From: Pocillopora damicornis | Taxonomy: Eukaryota | Reading direction: 5' to 3' | DNA length: 64,000 nt | Assembly: GCF_003704095.1 (NCBI RefSeq) | Contig: NW_020846784.1 | Location: 1 to 64,000 of the forward strand | Shown here: in pieces, positions 1 to 21,000 of the stretch | Position numbering within the stretch: position 1 is the first letter of the stretch | Layout of the letters: each line of letters opens with the position of its first letter | Made by a program: the position numbers

Positions 1-3000
1 TCATATTGATTCATGAATATAGTGTTGTTACAAATCTTTGTCTTTCTTCACGATAGATTTTGATGACCTCTTTGATGACGATGACCTTCGCTGAAAAAAA
101 TAAGTTATTGTGATAATGAAAAGCTAAACTGGAATTGTTCGTATGTTACTAAGCTAGAATATGTTTCCTTGGTGAAATTAGAACAGCAATTAACTGCTAT
201 AATGCCGTCGTTTAAATTAATTCTTACTCCTGTACATTGAAAGCAAATAAATGGTACATGTGAACTGTTTAAACTTGTTTGTAACTTTGTAGCGGCCAGT
301 ATCTATGACGTTCAACAACTGGCCCAGGTAGACTTAAGATCAGCTAGTACGACTGAGATTCCTATGTATATTTACCATCTTTCTTGATTTAATTAATCAC
401 GCCATGCTTTTGATATTTCTAATTCTGGTGCCATGTAAGGTGCTTGTTACATAAAAAACTAGTTATGGCCTAGCTTAATGGCACTGTCTCAGTGGAAGAG
501 CATAATCTGCAGGTTAAGGGTGACAACCAAACTGAATGTGTAGAACCTCTTCCCCTCTGAGATTAGTACTTGTGAATACATGGCATGCTTAGAGAAAGTG
601 GGAGTTGCACTAGGCTAGGCTTTGGGGAATGAGCTCATCTTTCTGCTTTGAAATGGGAAGAGAGAATGGGTAAACATACTTCACTCTGGTGCAATAGTTG
701 AGATATTTTGTCCTGTCTTTTGAGCATTGTGCCCAATTTATTTAAGGGAATGGGATATGATGGCAATATTACGACAAGGCGTTGTTTTCAAGGCCCCTCA
801 AACAATTTTTAGAGAACATTCTGACCCCACCCACCCTACTCAGACATCAAACTGTGCTTAGGAGTTCATATGAAGTATTACCTTGAGGAATTACAAACTT
901 ATCATCATTTTTATCTTCTTATTTTTTTTTAACAAAAAGTTTGTGAAGGGTCTCAAGTTTGTAAATATCTCAGCAGTATGATCCTGGGTGACAGCACAGC
1001 TAAAGGAGATCCTGACATGTTTTTGATTCCCTTCTTATTAATGGAGAGGAATAATTGATTTAAAATGAACTCTGGAATGTGATAAAATACCGGAAAAAAA
1101 GTTGTCTGAATGAGTGAAGTGGATAAGCCTGTCCATGCCTCTATGAGAGATTGCACTCCATCCCAATGCACTTAAAGAACACTGTACCAGACAGAGTGCA
1201 GCTTTTCCATCTGTTGGTCTTGATTATGCCCAAATTTGTGCTAATTCAAAACAAAAGACAATTCATAAAATGTTTTACCAAAAAATCTCATGAGAAGATT
1301 GTTTTAGAACAGAAGGTGAGGTTTAAGTCCTTGCTCTAGATAGGGCCCTAGCGTAGAAGGCGCATTGCTATTCAGGGAGGGTATGAACGGTTCCCTTTTC
1401 TTAAAATAGGTCAGGGCTCTTACAAAGTAAGGCAACAGACAACCACCCCTCCCCGCTAAGTATTTTTGTAAGTCACCCAATGTCACGTGATTAGTTTTTA
1501 CGGGATTGTTATTCTCGTTCAGCGTGGATGATTATTAGGTTAGGGTTAATTAAAAATCTGTTTAGTGCTCAAAAAGTATCCCCGTCAAAAGCATACTTTT
1601 CATTTTCTGGTATCCAATTTGGAAGACAATATTTCAGAAAAAGCTGCCTGCACCCTTTTACCACACAATTCACTTCAATGGCGCAGAGAACAGCTTGTTT
1701 GTTTCAGCTGTATCCTTCTGTTTTTGTCGGTGAGTGTTCTGATGTCTTGGTTCAGTGTCTTTACCTATGTACTCGCTGAACTTCAGTGTATTTTAGTTTT
1801 AATTTTACTTGTGCATTTCTAAGTCGATTCTCCTAACGAAGAATCGACTCCTGGTCTGTTACGAATTGCACAATTCGGATATGGGACCTTTGCTGTATAG
1901 GACACCATAGGTAACCAGTTGCACAACAACCCCACCAGACTTGCTGGGGCTGGTAAGGCTAAAAACATGGTAAGTGTGAAAGGGATAAATTCTGGAATTT
2001 TGTTCCGCAAGGGAGAGTAAGAACAAATTCCCATTTATTGTACTTTTCAAGATTTTCCAACCTTCCATTTATGTGCTCAATTGTTTGGGAATTCTTCTGT
2101 AAATAATCAGCGAATAGAGATGTGTTCTTACCACAACGAAATGCTAATTTAGCGTAGGATGTGACTACTCTCTTCCAGCTCGTATATGACGAAAATAATG
2201 CTATAAATAATTCAATTTAAATGGGTTAGATGAAAAATCATTTTACATGATCACTATATATTAAAAAGGTGTTGTGCTGAACAAGTTGAAATCTAGAAAT
2301 AATCTAAACACCACAACAGACAGAGGCTTGTTTTGGGACCAGACAGTATATTGAATGTATATATCCTACATAAATAACACACTAGACTATTACATAAAAA
2401 AGATATTGGACAAATATACTAAACCATTGATCCAGTAATCAGGAATATATTACAAACATGAGTGAGATTGAGATACAATCAAAACTGTTGATGGTGTGGG
2501 TAGGAGGGAAACTAAAACTTTCCTAAAGCTAGAATAAACTTGTTGCTTGCTTGCTTACTAGATTACTAATAACACGTGCATAGATACCTAGGTGGTAATA
2601 CTAAAGTAATTTTGCAATTAAAATGTGTTAGCGTGGTGAATAGCCATTGGCTCTACCTGAATCTTATGACTTACATGCTGAACAAATTGTTCAATCTTAA
2701 AGAAAAGGGAAAATACTAATTTGCATCCTACCTGTGCCTAGTCCAGGCCTCTCAGTTATCAATGTCTAGATTCATATTAATAGAGATTAATATTCACATT
2801 ACTCGTAACCATTGTGCTATCGTCTACTCAAAGTATTTTGACAGGCAGTGGATTTAATTCACTCACTTCACTTCCAGAAATGTGGTGTGTCATGAAATTG
2901 TGATCATACCTTTTAGTAAAAGCGATTATGTGTCATATACACAGATCTAGATAACATTCCCCTCAAAAATTCAACAATCATAGAAAATAGTGTACCTTTC

Positions 3001-18000: not shown

Positions 18001-21000
18001 AGTTAATGGATCCCACAGGAAGCTTCCTTGTTATTTGTAAAGGAGAATGAAATGCTTGATGACTAGTCACAAGGAGCTCTGGATCAAACCAAAAAGTAAC
18101 TTAAGCATCAAAATCATCTTGTAGCTGCTCAAAAATTCAAATTGATGGTTATTGTAGAGTTTGTATAACTAATTATAAAGACTCTCTCACTGCCCAGCAA
18201 CATGTTTCTTAATGGTGGGCATGATTTGCTATTCTTTTATGTACATTTTAATTGGCCTACTTGGCCTTGCTTTTCAGTGAAAATTCTGTAATGTTTTTAA
18301 ACATGTTGTGGAGGCCAAAAAAGGCTAATTTACTTGAATATGAAATGATAGCAATTCAGCCCACCCTTAGTGTAAGAGTCGACAAATTACGGGGTAATGT
18401 ACTATTATCAACTGAGTTGACAACGTAAATTGGCCACCATAAAAAAGATTTTTAAAAGCCAGTTAATACTAACTTACCCTGTTATACTCTCCTGCTGCTG
18501 CAACACCATAGTGTCTACCAACTTACCCCTTCTATCAAGAGTACAATATGTTTCTCATTTAAGAATCTGATTTGATTCTACTATTATTCTACTCCTCTAC
18601 AGTGACAAATTGTGTTCTCCCAACGAGTCCAACTGCATCTCCGTCTACAAGTCCACCGAAAACAAAGCAGCCGAATAGGCACACGGTAGCCATTGCAGTT
18701 GGGTGTTCATTGGCTGGGCTTGCTCTTGTTGTTGTCATTGGCTACTTGATTTGGCGACACTGTAGCCGCAACAATCAAGGAGGATACCGCAAGTTGTAAT
18801 GCACTGCAAGAATGATAGCCCGCAAGCATTTATTAAGGTGCATCATTAGTTATTTTTGATAGATATGGTGAGGAAAATTAGTGTAATTGTAGTACGTATA
18901 ATGGTACCCAAATTCAGGAGATAAAGTAACTTTAGGGAAAAGAGATTGTAGTCGTTCATCCAGGTGAATAAACTTGTTGTAAAGTATAACTGTATATCAA
19001 GTTGTAGTCACTTCCAATGTGGAAGGAGAATAAGAAGTTTTTAGGAATAACAAACCTTTAAAAGGTGTATGTTAGGTTAGTGGGTTTGAATAAGTATTTT
19101 GATGAAATCATTGAGTTATAGGTTTTAGAACTAAATACTTCACATTAATTAAAAGTGACAATACTGTTTTTCTTTTTTTTTCTTTTTTTTTTAGTTTGAT
19201 CCTAAAAATGTGCCACTGTAGGTTATAGTAAGGTATAGGGTTCAATATTTTCCTCGTCATTTTTAATCTTAATCAGTAAATAAGTTACTGAAGACCGTGC
19301 CTGTTACATGATGGTTTGGTAGTTTTATGACAGGAAGAATCAATAACTAGACCTTGGAAGTTTGAGGGCCTTGTCCCTGGGGACCCTGAGTAGGATAGCC
19401 ATTGGGTGCATTGGGGTCAATGATTTGCATATTCTGGAGTAATGAAATCGCATAGGAGTTACAAGGAATGATACGTTTTCAATACTCTGAAACTCTGTAT
19501 TGATTTAGGCTTGACAACTAGCCGCTGTACGGGAAATTAGCCTATGGCGCTATTTCTTCTCTCCGTAGAAGCAGACTCTGGTAAATTAAGTATCGCTACA
19601 GTCTTCAAACTACCTCTTACGCATTAGGTAATTAGTTATCAACGGAGCCAGACGTTCCCAAACAAAAGATAAATGTTTGACGAAAGGGAGGATCTTCCAA
19701 TATGTCACGCCTTAGAAAGTAACATTTCGGTGGGTCACGTTTTGTTTAGGTACGTCACAGGTCACTTCCGGAGCTTAACAATAGTCTAGTATTTCCCGCT
19801 ATCATTATTGTCTTATCTCCCTTAGAGAGCAGTGAAGATATGATTAAAATGGTTTCGCACAAAACAGTGAAAGTTGTCGATCAACAACACAGTAGCTCTT
19901 AAGTGGCCGTGTTCTTACCCTCCTTTTCCGATCAGCTTCTCTCAAAAAACTTTTTTTGGGGAGCCATTGAACGCTCTAGAGAAGAGAAGGATTTTTAAAT
20001 ACGTTAATGATTACTTTGATAAGTTTTCTTTGTTCCAAATGCTTTCGGTTCCATGGGCTAAAATTAGTTCGAAACTGTTTCGGTTCAAATATATATATTC
20101 TTTATGTTCTCGAATGGAAATTCAATTTTAAGTATTCTTCGAGTCAGGGTTGAAATTTTTTCTTTTACTTTTCACGAACAAATTACTTGTGCTGGATTTT
20201 GATACAATTCATAGGTGTGGGTCGGGTATTATCATTAAACCTCACTTGACGTAACCCGCTAAAATACGTGAGGTAAGCATCAGCTGATACTTCTCACGTC
20301 TGTTTGAATGAGGTTTCATGTTCAGTTTTTCTGTACCCTTCGAAGCTTTTAATTACCGCAAAGAGGATAGCACAGGTGAAGTTTTTTTTAAAATGATTTA
20401 AAAACCCTTACCTTCGAATAAAATTGTGTTCCGTGGCTTGGATTTCGACACGCGCCCATGTGGACGATATTCTTCGTCAACATTGTAGCAAACAATAGCG
20501 ATTACGTCGTGCAAAACACGTGTGTTTTCGACAGTCTTGCGTCAGATACACACCCTGGTTACCACGGTAACAATACCACTTATTGTTCAAACTCGCCAGT
20601 GATTGGTGCGGTGTGACGAGAGTATCTATTTTTGGCATGAAAATTTCCCCGGCGAAGTGTATTCAAACGCGAATGTTCCTCAACAGCTTTCAATATAAAT
20701 AGACCAATTCTCAGTGTAGGGAATTATTATTCACAAACTTTTTAGTCCTTGGTGACCAGAGGTAATACAGTGTTTTGCCTTAACGAATAGAATTATCTTT
20801 GTAATAATACCGCTTACTCCGGGAAGGAAAAACGTATTGGGGCTACGCTACTTAAAAGAAACGTTGCCAAGAAATTAACCGAGTCAACAAACATGAAAGA
20901 AGAGGTTTGCTCGGCCATCAAGTTCCTCTCGGAGGTTCTTTCAAGGAACTCAAAAGTAAACCAAGAACAGATTCAAAAATTTAAGGACACATTAGAACAA

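What the first reader, a model, noticed from the sequence alone, without database searches (positions are those of the whole stretch)
1678..18799. Tandem triplet of divergent single-domain LAMP genes
Seen: three adjacent same-strand genes with 5 exons, intron phases 1,0,1,1, a mucin stalk, one LAMP domain, a TM and a GYxxPhi tail. Their luminal sequences are highly divergent, implying old and retained duplications. Known: vertebrate LAMP1/2 have two LAMP domains; CD68 and LAMP3 have a mucin stalk plus one; LAMP1 marks the symbiosome in anthozoan models. Inference: this may be a subfunctionalised set of coat proteins for lysosomes, phagosomes and symbiosomes. Many of the exons are missing from the ORF track.
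[Added by the scan's program, not by the reader: the finding's places include an assembly gap (unread letters, written N; its length is only estimated) at 7616 to 7715, 17196 to 17732. Whether the letters on both sides are continuous or in frame is not known: test that first.]
Basis: partly seen in the sequence, partly recalled or inferred. Interest (0 to 1): 0.72.

Follow-up and report, generated by a model that had tools for sequence, protein, structure and literature searches.

The report
Three tandem coral LAMP genes
Three neighbouring genes in this Pocillopora coral scaffold each encode a small lysosome-type membrane glycoprotein of the LAMP family; they are old duplicates kept side by side in stony corals, an ordinary gene family with a tidy evolutionary history.

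Summary
Window 1678-18799 (+ strand) carries three LAMP-family genes, A, B and C. Each has five coding exons, intron phases 1,0,1,1, an S/T/P-rich stalk, one LAMP domain, one TM helix and a C-terminal GYxxPhi (GYEKM, GYEKV, GYRKL).

The exons tile database proteins without my joining anything:
- A tiles P. damicornis XP_027053758.1.
- B tiles XP_027053771.1, which is annotated "partial" and starts at the first codon after the 7616-7715 gap.
- C tiles a Pocillopora transcript-derived protein, P0174.

The first gap hides the 5' end of B exon 2, so frame continuity there is unknowable. The second gap lies in C intron 3 and hides no coding sequence.

Luminal exons are 21-36% identical between paralogues. 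A tree gives three supported groups: A (stony corals only so far), and B and C (stony corals plus sea anemones). Accession order, shared contigs and fused gene models indicate the array is conserved in other corals.

B is the orthogroup of Aiptasia LAMP1, the published symbiosome marker. However, the paralogues also occur in species I recall as non-symbiotic (Desmophyllum, Nematostella, Actinia). So they did not arise for symbiosis, and subfunctionalisation remains untested.

Verdict: new members of a known kind, of modest interest.

The parts
1678..1729 (+). Gene A exon 1: ATG plus the N-terminal part of the signal peptide, 17 codons + 1 base, donor TCG|GTGAGT, phase 1
   Evidence: Tiles P0121 residues 51-67, 17/17, and P0163 residues 1-17, 17/17. 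RefSeq extends the ORF to the ATG at 1528.
3053..3303 (+). Gene A exon 2: end of signal peptide, S/T/P stalk and start of the LAMP domain with the first Cys; GC donor GAG|GCAAGT, phase 0
   Evidence: 83/83 identical to P0121 residues 69-151. Splice contexts.
3794..3980 (+). Gene A exon 3: LAMP domain, second Cys; phase 1
   Evidence: 62/62 identical to P0121 residues 152-213.
4354..4527 (+). Gene A exon 4: LAMP domain, third Cys; phase 1
   Evidence: 57/57 identical to P0121 residues 215-271. The ORF block gives PF01299 at 15.9 bits on profile positions 98-146.
5393..5550 (+). Gene A exon 5: fourth Cys, linker, TM helix, tail ending GYEKM, stop
   Evidence: PF21222 at 32.4 bits against a cutoff of 27. 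51/51 identical to P0121 residues 273-323.
6874..6919 (+). Gene B candidate exon 1: ATG plus hydrophobic signal-type peptide, 15 codons + 1 base, donor TTG|GTAAGT, phase 1. Inferred.
   Evidence: Pattern scan. 8/15 identical over its full length to the N-termini of P0014, P0018 and P0019. No transcript evidence was seen.
7616..7715 (.). Assembly gap hiding the 5' end of gene B exon 2 (acceptor and part of the repeat-encoded stalk)
   Evidence: N run. The stalk tandem repeat abuts it at 7716. The RefSeq B model is partial from 7718.
7716..7999 (+). Gene B exon 2, visible part: Thr-rich stalk encoded by 27-36-nt tandem repeats, then the start of the LAMP domain with the first Cys; donor AAG|GTGTGT, phase 0
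   Evidence: 94/94 identical to P0165 residues 1-94. TRF arrays. PF01299 at 14.3 bits on profile positions 3-31.
8753..8978 (+). Gene B exon 3: LAMP domain, second Cys; phase 1
   Evidence: 75/75 identical to P0165 residues 95-169.
10078..10275 (+). Gene B exon 4: LAMP domain, third Cys; phase 1
   Evidence: 65/65 identical to P0165 residues 171-235.
11634..11800 (+). Gene B exon 5: fourth Cys, linker, TM helix, tail ending GYEKV, stop
   Evidence: PF21222 at 64.4 bits. 54/54 identical to P0165 residues 237-290.
13781..13826 (+). Gene C exon 1: ATG plus signal-type peptide, 15 codons + 1 base, donor CAG|GTAAAA, phase 1
   Evidence: 15/15 identical to P0174 residues 1-15, 13/15 to P. verrucosa P0162, 11/15 to Stylophora P0155.
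15105..15589 (+). Gene C exon 2: 130-aa S/T/P stalk and start of the LAMP domain with the first Cys; donor AAG|GTAAGT, phase 0
   Evidence: 159/161 identical to P0174 residues 17-177.
15980..16193 (+). Gene C exon 3: LAMP domain, second Cys; phase 1
   Evidence: 71/71 identical to P0174 residues 178-248.
17196..17732 (.). Assembly gap inside intron 3 of gene C; hides no coding exon
   Evidence: Exons 3 and 4 are adjacent in P0174, P0162 and P0171. The acceptor lies at 17757-17758, after a T run that starts at 17733.
17759..17944 (+). Gene C exon 4: LAMP domain, third Cys; phase 1
   Evidence: 61/61 identical to P0174 residues 250-310. PF01299 at 17.1 bits on profile positions 97-148.
18603..18799 (+). 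Gene C exon 5: fourth Cys, S/T/P linker, TM helix, longer tail ending GYRKL, stop
   Evidence: PF21222 at 25.7 bits, just under the cutoff of 27. 61/68 identical to P0174 residues 312-379.

Best explanation
The region is a compact head-to-tail array of three paralogous LAMP-family genes on a Pocillopora damicornis scaffold. The spacers are 1.3 and 2.0 kb.

Each gene encodes a type I membrane glycoprotein made of a signal peptide, an O-glycosylatable S/T/P stalk, one LAMP beta-prism domain with the four family cysteines, one TM helix and a short cytosolic tail ending in GYxxPhi.

Inferred mechanism, from what is established for LAMPs:
- The proteins are glycosylated in the ER and Golgi.
- The terminal tyrosine motif is read by clathrin-adaptor mu subunits and sends them to late endosomes and lysosomes.
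- There their glycosylated luminal parts form the protective coat of the limiting membrane.
- They reach phagosomes, and in symbiotic cells symbiosomes, by fusion.

The three genes are ancient duplicates. Orthogroups B and C predate the split of sea anemones and stony corals. Orthogroup A predates at least the split of the two main stony-coral lineages. Each orthogroup keeps its own fixed tail motif, which points to retained and probably non-identical roles in trafficking. What those roles are is not shown.
For: Shown by calls.

(1) Anatomy and splice junctions. The exons tile P0121, P0165 and P0174 exactly or nearly exactly. Phases are 1,0,1,1. There are three GYxxPhi ends in the window.

(2) Family membership.
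- PF21222 scores on the last exons are 32.4, 64.4 and 25.7 bits.
- The weak PF01299 matches fall at consistent profile positions.
- Orthogroup profiles hit the LAMP1 chain 8fy5_C at E 1.1e-26 (A), 1.5e-29 (C) and 2.7e-42 (B). They also hit LAMP-3 4akm (A and C profiles only), the LAMP-1 domains 5gv0 and 8ath, and the LAMP-2 TM 2mof.
- The AlphaFold model of P0121 (gene A's own protein) has blocks of pLDDT 66-91 across the domain, residues 121-264. All 5 of 5 Foldseek PDB hits with E<=0.001 are LAMP chains, the best being 4akm_B at E 1.9e-11 and TM 0.78.
- The model of P0174 (gene C's near-identical relative) has its top hits at 5gv0, 4akm and 8ath, with E 1e-10 to 5e-9.

(3) One domain each. 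There is one luminal Pfam stretch in 9 of 10 relatives scanned and one TM stretch in 9 of 10; the exception is a chimeric model. The stalks are predicted disordered.

(4) Age. The tree has 48 rows and 229 columns. A is supported at 100/100 (11 rows, all stony corals or unnamed), B at 98/94 (15 rows plus one octocoral) and C at 98/95 (10 rows, including Nematostella, Actinia and Actinostola).

(5) Conserved neighbourhood.
- The P. meandrina model CAH3149951.1 (1007 aa) is collinear with A, then B, then C of the window.
- A. cervicornis KAK2573247.1 is a B-type last exon fused to a C-type gene, and the A-type is KAK2573249.1 on the same contig.
- In Desmophyllum, C is KAJ7392646.1 and A is KAJ7392649.1, on the same contig.
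- In Montipora capricornis, B is XP_068732139.1 and C is XP_068732140.1.
- In Actinia, B and C are on one 262,613-bp contig.
- In Stylophora, A-type and C-type records share one 1,930,160-bp contig.

(6) Group-specific tails. YRKL is invariant in 10/10 C-type rows and GYEKV in 12/12 B-type rows. In A-type rows, Y and the terminal M are invariant in 12/12.

Established knowledge used. The LAMP domain has 150-200 aa with two conserved disulfides, lies next to the TM helix and forms the lysosomal glycocalyx; the cytosolic tail carries targeting motifs (Wilke et al. 2012, PMC3409847, passages).
Against: - No expression, glycosylation or localisation data for these three genes were available, so lysosomal residence is inferred from family membership and the tail motif only.
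- Taken exon by exon, the luminal exons do not reach Pfam's gathering score (best 17.1 bits against 27.2). Four luminal exon blocks (A2, A3, B3, C3) gave no family at all, and two more (B4, C2) gave no LAMP-family match.
- The full RefSeq protein of A gives no PF01299 match at E<=0.01.
- C's last exon is just under the PF21222 cutoff (25.7 against 27).
- B's exon 1 and the start of its exon 2 are not verified because of the gap.
- B was not folded; its fold is supported only by the profile search.
- Relations among A, B and C are unresolved. The node joining them has 65/92 support.
- A stony-coral-specific origin of A from C is not rejected (AU p 0.088). Origin from B is borderline (p 0.045).
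- The neighbourhood evidence outside Pocillopora rests on accession order, equal contig lengths and fused models, not on DNA that I could read.
Confidence: 0.85

Rival explanations
1. One reading: the three paralogues are a subfunctionalised set, with one coating lysosomes, one phagosomes and one the symbiosome, and the retention of the triplet is linked to photosymbiosis.
For: - The B orthogroup contains Aiptasia LAMP1 (KXJ16564.1), which decorates symbiosomes.
- In Aiptasia a second protein, LAMP1B, is also on the symbiosome, and its knock-down reduces symbiosis (bioRxiv 2025.10.09.679812, passages).
- In the soft coral Xenia, one of two LAMP genes (Lamp1-L) is a marker of the alga-hosting cell type while the other is ubiquitous (PMC7332420, passages).
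- Each orthogroup has its own invariant tail motif, and C has a longer spacer between the TM helix and the Tyr (spacing by inspection).
Against: - A and C occur in Desmophyllum pertusum, and B and C in Nematostella and Actinia tenebrosa. I recall these as lacking algal symbionts. The duplicates are therefore older than, and kept without, photosymbiosis.
- In Aiptasia both tested LAMPs sit on the same organelle, which is the opposite of a clean partition.
- I could not map Aiptasia LAMP1B or the Xenia genes onto A, B or C.
- No Pocillopora expression data were seen.
Confidence: 0.2
2. The three units are one long gene encoding a three-domain LAMP-like protein, as in the 1007-aa P. meandrina model.
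For: CAH3149951.1 (P0164) aligns collinearly with all three units of the window. A. cervicornis KAK2573247.1 also fuses a B-type end to a C-type gene.
Against: - Each unit ends in a TM helix, a tail and an in-frame stop.
- A and C start with their own ATG and hydrophobic leader.
- Separate proteins of 273, 290 (partial) and 379 aa are annotated or assembled from transcripts.
- The fused model does not use B's candidate exon 1, and it uses a 30-aa piece at 13872-13961 that is absent from the C-type proteins P0174 and P0162.
Confidence: 0.03
3. A and/or C are decaying duplicates (pseudogenes) of the canonical gene B.
For: A and C are the most divergent copies. Their Pfam scores are low, and A sits on a long stem branch of 1.18.
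Against: - Their reading frames are intact, with consensus splice sites.
- Orthologues are conserved across stony corals (A) and across stony corals plus anemones (C), with invariant cysteines and tails.
- The predicted domains fold as LAMP with good confidence.
- Short contigs of 1.5-2.4 kb encode correctly spliced A and C proteins, so they must come from RNA. That last step is inference.
Confidence: 0.03

Closest known systems
Aiptasia (Exaiptasia diaphana) LAMP1 / LAMP1A, KXJ16564.1 / XP_020896464.1
   Same: - It is in the same orthogroup as gene B (tree). KXJ16564.1 is in P0011's 90% cluster.
- It has the same architecture: stalk, one LAMP domain, TM helix and a GYEKV end.
- The tail is nearly identical: 12 of 14 residues of the antibody peptide are shared with gene B, by inspection.
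   Different: - The luminal exon is only about 37% identical (B3 against P0011).
- Localisation to lysosomes and symbiosomes is shown for Aiptasia only.
- Genes A and C are not its orthologues.
Vertebrate LAMP-3 (DC-LAMP) and CD68 (macrosialin)
   Same: - The overall plan is a Ser/Thr/Pro-rich region followed by a single membrane-proximal LAMP domain, a TM helix and a short Tyr-motif tail. The architecture of CD68 and LAMP-3 is recalled.
- The LAMP-3 domain structure 4akm is the best (A) or second-best (C) structural match.
- One C-type record is even named 'macrosialin-like' by NCBI.
   Different: - Identity is only 19-21% in the structural alignments.
- In the tree the cnidarian groups do not nest with any bilaterian sequence sampled (which included no vertebrates).
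- The resemblance in architecture is therefore not orthology.
Vertebrate LAMP-1 and LAMP-2
   Same: - Same family. The profile matches to 8fy5_C cover the membrane-proximal domain, the TM helix and the tail.
- The TM helix and tail of B are highly similar to LAMP-1 (PF21222 at 64.4 bits).
   Different: - LAMP-1 and LAMP-2 have two LAMP domains joined by a hinge (PMC3409847). The coral proteins have one.
- The database name 'LAMP1-like' therefore overstates the relationship.
Xenia Lamp1-L / Lamp1-S and Aiptasia LAMP1A / LAMP1B
   Same: They are published examples of more than one LAMP paralogue in an anthozoan. They show either cell-type-specific expression (Xenia) or joint symbiosome localisation (Aiptasia).
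   Different: - Those papers, as far as the passages I read go, describe two genes and no tandem triplet or orthogroup scheme.
- I could not assign them to A, B or C, except LAMP1A, which is B.
ATP6AP1 (Ac45)-type accessory subunit of the V-ATPase Vo sector
   Same: The Foldseek hits of the C-type model include ten V-ATPase Vo chains at E 6e-8 to 1e-4. This is consistent with a LAMP-like luminal domain plus a TM helix. That these chains are ATP6AP1 is recalled, not checked.
   Different: The rmsd is high (13.6-17.2 A) and identity is 9-12%. There was no sequence-level match in the PDB profile searches. This is a fold resemblance only.

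Membership tests
LAMP family (Pfam PF01299 luminal domain + PF21222 TM segment) | A conserved LAMP domain of about 150-200 residues directly adjacent to a single TM helix (PMC3409847) | tested here: met
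   - Orthogroup profiles built around the window's proteins match LAMP chains over domain plus TM: A at E 1.1e-26, C at 1.5e-29, B at 2.7e-42.
- Exon by exon, only weak PF01299 matches appear (14.3-17.1 bits, cutoff 27.2), though at consistent profile positions.
LAMP family | Two conserved disulfide bonds, that is four conserved cysteines in the domain | tested here: met
   - Each gene has one Cys in the domain part of exon 2, one in exon 3, one in exon 4 and one at the start of exon 5.
- These are invariant within the orthogroup alignments: C135/C166/C239/C275 in A, C161/C193/C274/C314 in C, and C112/C195/C239 with C66 nearly invariant in B.
- The bonds themselves are not testable here.
LAMP family | Beta-prism fold of the luminal domain | tested here: met
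   - A (P0121, the window's own protein): 4akm_B at E 1.9e-11 and TM 0.78, 5gv0 at TM 0.69; 5 of 5 hits at E<=0.001 are LAMPs.
- C (P0174, near-identical relative): 5gv0 at E 1.3e-10, 4akm_B at TM 0.72.
LAMP family | PF21222 TM segment above the curated cutoff (27 bits) | tested here: inconclusive
   A scores 32.4 and B 64.4, both above the cutoff. C scores 25.7, just below it.
LAMP family | Type I topology with an N-terminal signal peptide | tested here: inconclusive
   - Hydrophobic N-termini are encoded by exon 1 plus the start of exon 2 in A and C, and by a candidate exon 1 in B.
- The models predict an N-terminal helix.
- No signal-peptide predictor was available, and B's junction is hidden by the gap.
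LAMP family | Short cytosolic tail with a C-terminal Tyr-based (GYxxPhi) lysosomal sorting motif | tested here: met
   GYEKM, GYEKV and GYRKL sit at the extreme C-termini and are invariant within orthogroups. That the motif is functional is inferred.
LAMP family | Heavy N- and O-glycosylation; residence in lysosomal or late endosomal membranes | not testable with these tools
   Only sequence proxies are available: 4, 12 and 8 N-x-S/T sequons counted exon by exon, and stalks with 50-61% S+T+P.
Vertebrate LAMP-1/LAMP-2 subfamily (as the database names suggest) | Two LAMP domains separated by a proline-rich hinge | tested here: not met
   - There is one luminal Pfam stretch per protein.
- There is one folded domain per model, with a disordered stalk.
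- There is one set of four domain cysteines per gene.

The most novel reading that the evidence does not exclude
The A-B-C array may be an ancient, syntenic hexacorallian LAMP cluster whose three orthogroups have been held apart by selection on their sorting tails:
- B has GYEKV at the LAMP-1-like spacing.
- C has YRKL after a longer spacer.
- A has Y-[EQ]-x-M together with an invariant juxtamembrane tail Cys and an invariant extra luminal Cys.

Under this reading the three proteins would mark different endolysosomal or phagosomal compartments, and symbiotic corals would have drawn on one particular member to build the symbiosome coat. If so, paralogue-specific reagents would give separate handles on lysosome, phagosome and symbiosome identity in corals.
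Probability: 0.2. Interest if true: 0.6.

Novelty: new member of a known kind. Interest (0 to 1): 0.3.

Why it matters
LAMP1 is the standard marker for the coral and anemone symbiosome. Antibodies and knock-downs have so far been aimed at one or two genes, which are called 'LAMP1' by similarity.

This locus shows that stony corals carry three distinct, anciently separated single-domain LAMPs side by side. Only one of them, B, is the counterpart of the Aiptasia marker.

This matters practically in three ways:
- Naming: 'LAMP1-like', 'LAMP2', 'LAMP5' and 'macrosialin-like' are applied inconsistently, and several public gene models fuse neighbouring genes.
- Interpretation: bulk and single-cell expression data depend on telling the paralogues apart.
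- Reagents: paralogue-specific tools can now be designed.

It does not change what a LAMP is.

Tried and rejected
- A word-based search with B exon 3 found nothing (26 candidates, none scored). This was a false negative. P0165, which contains that exon letter for letter, is in the collection. So 'no hit' from that tool carried no weight.

- Four-exon models were rejected. Both A (ATG at 3016/3022) and C (ATG at 15083) have an in-frame ATG and a hydrophobic stretch inside the exon-2 ORF, upstream of the acceptor. I rejected these because P0121, P0163 and P0123 (for A) and P0174, P0162 and P0155 (for C) carry the exon-1 peptide spliced onto exon 2. The tblastn extension to 15065 was an artefact of the T-rich tract.

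- My first donor choices were corrected after seeing P0121 and P0002. These were A exon 2 (3309), B exon 2 (7963), and the off-by-one ends of B and C exon 1.

- The longer C start (ATG 13760) is not excluded, but relatives start at 13781.

- B exon 1 was not found in the fused P. meandrina model.

- AU tests did not settle the age of A.

- Literature searches found no description of a tandem LAMP triplet in corals. One search was poorly targeted: the listed papers hold none of the LAMP phrase.

- Not done:
  - Joining exons into a spliced protein for any search or fold.
  - Any scan of genome contigs, which holds only bacteria and archaea.
  - Viral contigs and metagenome contigs, which were closed.
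  - Paper supplements, which were closed. They may hold gene identifiers for Aiptasia LAMP1B, the Xenia Lamp1-L/S genes, and single-cell expression tables.
  - The protein-atlas search and complex prediction, which were not used.
  - Folding of B.

Whether P. damicornis has its own RefSeq record for gene C stayed unchecked.

Full report
WHAT IS THERE

The window is eukaryotic, with 33-42% G+C (lower only over the gap) and three runs of N. A stop-to-stop ORF list over 1-20000 showed three sets of + strand blocks. Each set reads stalk, then cysteine-containing luminal pieces, then a TM helix and a tail.

A six-frame pattern scan of the whole window found exactly three 'TM + GY-x-x-[ILMVF] + stop' ends, at 5398-5550, 11648-11800 and 18647-18799, all on the + strand. 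So there are three genes and no fourth copy in the 64 kb.

EXON-BY-EXON SEARCHES; NO JOINING

Pfam on the exon ORF blocks (13 blocks) gave the following.
- The LAMP TM segment PF21222 appeared on all three last exons: A 32.4 bits, B 64.4 bits, C 25.7 bits, against a cutoff of 27.
- Weak PF01299 luminal matches appeared on A exon 4 (15.9 bits, profile 98-146), B exon 2 (14.3 bits, profile 3-31) and C exon 4 (17.1 bits, profile 97-148). These are the parts of the profile that those exons should encode.
- Four luminal exon blocks (A2, A3, B3, C3) matched no family. Two more (B4 and C2) had only chance-level matches to unrelated families.

IDENTITY OF THE SCAFFOLD AND CONFIRMATION OF THE MODELS

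A search with A exon 5 (13 hits among 26 candidates) returned P0121. This is XP_027053758.1, 'LAMP1-like [Pocillopora damicornis]', and it matches at 100%. Its 90% cluster also holds:
- P0165 (XP_027053771.1), 'LAMP1-like, partial [P. damicornis]', on the same 127,881-bp contig;
- P. verrucosa records of 273 and 379 aa;
- a 1007-aa P. meandrina model;
- unnamed transcript-type contigs.

Placing each exon translation separately on these proteins gives the following.
- A exons 1-5 fall on P0121 residues 51-67, 69-151, 152-213, 215-271 and 273-323, 270/270 identical.
- B exons 2-5 fall on P0165 residues 1-94, 95-169, 171-235 and 237-290, 288/288 identical.
- C exons 1-5 fall on P0174 residues 1-15, 17-177, 178-248, 250-310 and 312-379, with exons 3 and 4 at 100%.

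The single missing residue at each phase-1 junction, and none at the phase-0 junction, are what the phases 1,0,1,1 predict. computes these phases for A and C, and for B from the stop backwards.

All acceptors are AG. All donors are GT except A intron 2, which uses a GC donor (GAG|GCAAGT).

RefSeq begins A at an upstream in-frame ATG (1528).

THE TWO GAPS

Gap 1 (7616-7715) interrupts gene B.
- The first base after the Ns is already inside a 27-36-nt tandem repeat that encodes the Thr-rich stalk.
- No acceptor site can be seen.
- The left flank has no stalk-like frame.
- RefSeq's own model is 5'-partial from 7718.

Continuity and frame across this gap are therefore unknown, and so is the stalk length of B.

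A candidate exon 1 lies at 6874-6919. It has an ATG, 15 hydrophobic codons plus 1 base, and a TTG|GTAAGT donor. It has the same length as C's exon 1 and is 8/15 identical to the N-termini of Porites-type B proteins. It remains an inference.

Gap 2 (17196-17732) lies in intron 3 of C. Exon 4's acceptor is 27 nt beyond it. Exons 3 and 4 are adjacent in three relatives, so no coding sequence is hidden.

FAMILY MEMBERSHIP

Orthogroup alignments were built from database proteins (A1, A2, A3) and searched as profiles against PDB sequences.
- They hit LAMP-1 (8fy5_C) at E 1.1e-26 (A), 1.5e-29 (C) and 2.7e-42 (B).
- Further hits were LAMP-3 (A and C only), other LAMP-1 chains, and LAMP-2 chains, including a LAMP-2 luminal domain (5gv3) for B only. 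There was nothing else below E 0.07.

An AlphaFold model of P0121, the window's own gene A protein, is confident over the domain, with pLDDT blocks of 66-91 for residues 121-264. Its only Foldseek PDB matches at E<=0.001 are five LAMP chains, the best being 4akm_B at E 1.9e-11 and TM 0.78.

The model of P0174 (gene C type) matches 5gv0, 4akm and 8ath at E 1e-10 to 5e-9. More weakly and with high rmsd, it also matches V-ATPase Vo accessory chains.

Both stalks are predicted disordered.

Each gene has the four family cysteines, one per exon from exon 2 to exon 5, and they are invariant in the orthogroups.

Each protein has one domain, not two. These are therefore LAMP-family members with a LAMP-3/CD68-like plan. 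They are not LAMP-1/2 proper.

DIVERGENCE AND AGE

Between paralogues the luminal exons are 21-36% identical and the last exon is 44-47% identical.

The search with B exon 5 (285 hits at E<=0.001 among 332 candidates, 120 listed) and an exhaustive phmmer search with C exon 5 (19 hits, one of them a repetitive non-LAMP protein) supplied relatives.

A maximum-likelihood tree of 48 proteins was built on their last 225 residues, with 229 columns kept. The rows were my own choice of named cnidarians, good unnamed full-length rows and 12 outgroups. It gives:
- clade A at 100/100 (11 rows: Pocillopora, Oculina, Desmophyllum, Montipora, Acropora and unnamed);
- clade B at 98/94 (15 rows plus the octocoral Dendronephthya; includes Exaiptasia, Actinia and Nematostella);
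- clade C at 98/95 (10 rows, including Nematostella, Actinia and Actinostola).

The order of branching among A, B and C is unresolved. AU tests leave open that A is a fast-evolving stony-coral offshoot of C (p 0.088), or marginally of B (p 0.045).

So the B/C split predates the anemone/stony-coral divergence. A predates at least the split between the Acropora/Montipora/Porites lineage and the Pocillopora/Oculina/Desmophyllum lineage.

CONSERVED NEIGHBOURHOOD

I could not read other eukaryotic genomes, so this evidence is indirect.
- The 1007-aa P. meandrina model is collinear with A, B and C of the window.
- A. cervicornis KAK2573247.1 consists of a B-type last exon followed by a C-type gene. 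The A-type protein is KAK2573249.1 on the same contig.
- In Desmophyllum, C and A are KAJ7392646.1 and KAJ7392649.1, on one contig.
- In Montipora capricornis, B and C have consecutive accessions.
- In Actinia, B and C share a 262,613-bp contig.
- Stylophora A-type and C-type records share one contig.

FUNCTION

Nothing in these tools measures expression or localisation. By family membership and the terminal GYxxPhi, the most likely function is that of LAMPs generally. They would be sorted by adaptor complexes to late endosomes and lysosomes, form the glycoprotein coat of the limiting membrane, and be delivered to phagosomes by fusion (established for LAMPs; PMC3409847, passages).

Each orthogroup keeps its own tail: GYEKV in 12/12 B rows, YRKL in 10/10 C rows, and Y..M in 12/12 A rows. 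By inspection, C places the Tyr about three residues further from the membrane than B. From memory of the LAMP-1 literature, spacing affects sorting. This is a lead for different trafficking, not a result.

THE SYMBIOSOME IDEA

Gene B is the counterpart of the Aiptasia LAMP1 used as a symbiosome marker. The antibody was raised against a 14-residue peptide of KXJ16564.1 (bioRxiv 723312, methods passage). That peptide is the C-terminus of P0011, and KXJ16564.1 is in P0011's cluster.

Published passages show two anthozoan precedents for more than one LAMP. Xenia Lamp1-L is a marker of alga-hosting cells while Lamp1-S is ubiquitous (PMC7332420). Aiptasia LAMP1A and LAMP1B are both on the symbiosome (bioRxiv 2025.10.09.679812).

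Against a symbiosis-driven origin, the paralogues exist in Desmophyllum, Nematostella and Actinia tenebrosa. Their non-symbiotic status is recalled, not checked here.

VERDICT

This is a real, correctly described tandem triplet of an ordinary, known family. Two of the three genes already carry RefSeq annotations.

What my calls add:
- the exact models and the status of the two gaps;
- the three-orthogroup scheme and its age;
- the identification of B as the Aiptasia-marker orthologue;
- several chimeric public gene models.

I found no paper describing the triplet (searches; supplements closed).

Noticed in passing
window 1678-18799, compared with P0164 (P. meandrina CAH3149951.1), P0001 (A. 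cervicornis KAK2573247.1) and P0212 (Stylophora PFX34038.1): Public gene models fuse neighbouring LAMP genes. The 1007-aa P. meandrina protein runs through A, B and C. The A. cervicornis 'LAMP1, partial' record is a B-type last exon plus a C-type gene that lacks most of exon 4. The 609-aa Stylophora record sits in an A-type cluster and may be a similar fusion; I did not check it.
   Followed up: partly
window 1528-1677: RefSeq's model of gene A starts at an upstream in-frame ATG, adding 50 residues that no relative shares (alignment A1). The structure model gives them pLDDT below 40. The ATG at 1678 is the likelier start.
   Followed up: partly
window 3303/3304: Intron 2 of gene A has a GC-AG splice pair (GAG|GCAAGT). 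The equivalent introns of B and C use GT.
   Followed up: no
P0121 residues C142 and C315 (window exon 2 near 3275 and exon 5 near 5520): All 12 A-type proteins share an extra luminal Cys seven residues after the first domain Cys, and a Cys in the cytosolic tail just after the TM helix. Neither is a family cysteine, and their role is unknown. Possibilities are an unpaired or intermolecular disulfide and a palmitoylation site.
   Followed up: no
window 16272-16501 and 9186-9358: There are intronic minisatellites: a 36-nt unit repeated 6.5 times in C intron 3, upstream of the 537-N gap, and a 43-nt unit repeated 4 times (92% matches) in B intron 3.
   Followed up: no
window 20791-21459 (+): A single ORF carries a BTG-family anti-proliferative domain (PF07742, 121 bits).
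   Followed up: partly
window 31148-32395 (+) and 34194-35288 (-): Two intronless rhodopsin-type GPCR ORFs lie in divergent orientation (PF00001, 174 and 163 bits).
   Followed up: partly
window 45467-50273 (+): Several exons of a sodium/calcium exchanger-type gene are present (PF01699 on three ORF blocks).
   Followed up: partly
window 60259-62454 (+): Two large ORF blocks carry TSNAXIP1_N (61.9 bits) and Clathrin_H_link (46 bits) domains. They are probably exons of one gene.
   Followed up: no
window 24515-24524: A third, 10-base run of N lies outside the finding.
   Followed up: no
(model of P0174): The C-type model also matches V-ATPase Vo accessory-subunit chains (E 6e-8 to 1e-4, rmsd 13.6-17.2 A). 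The A-type model does not match them at E<=0.001.
   Followed up: no
one search compared: The word-based protein search missed P0165 even though that protein contains the query exon letter for letter. Negative results from that tool with short exon queries in 'longer' mode are unreliable.
   Followed up: yes
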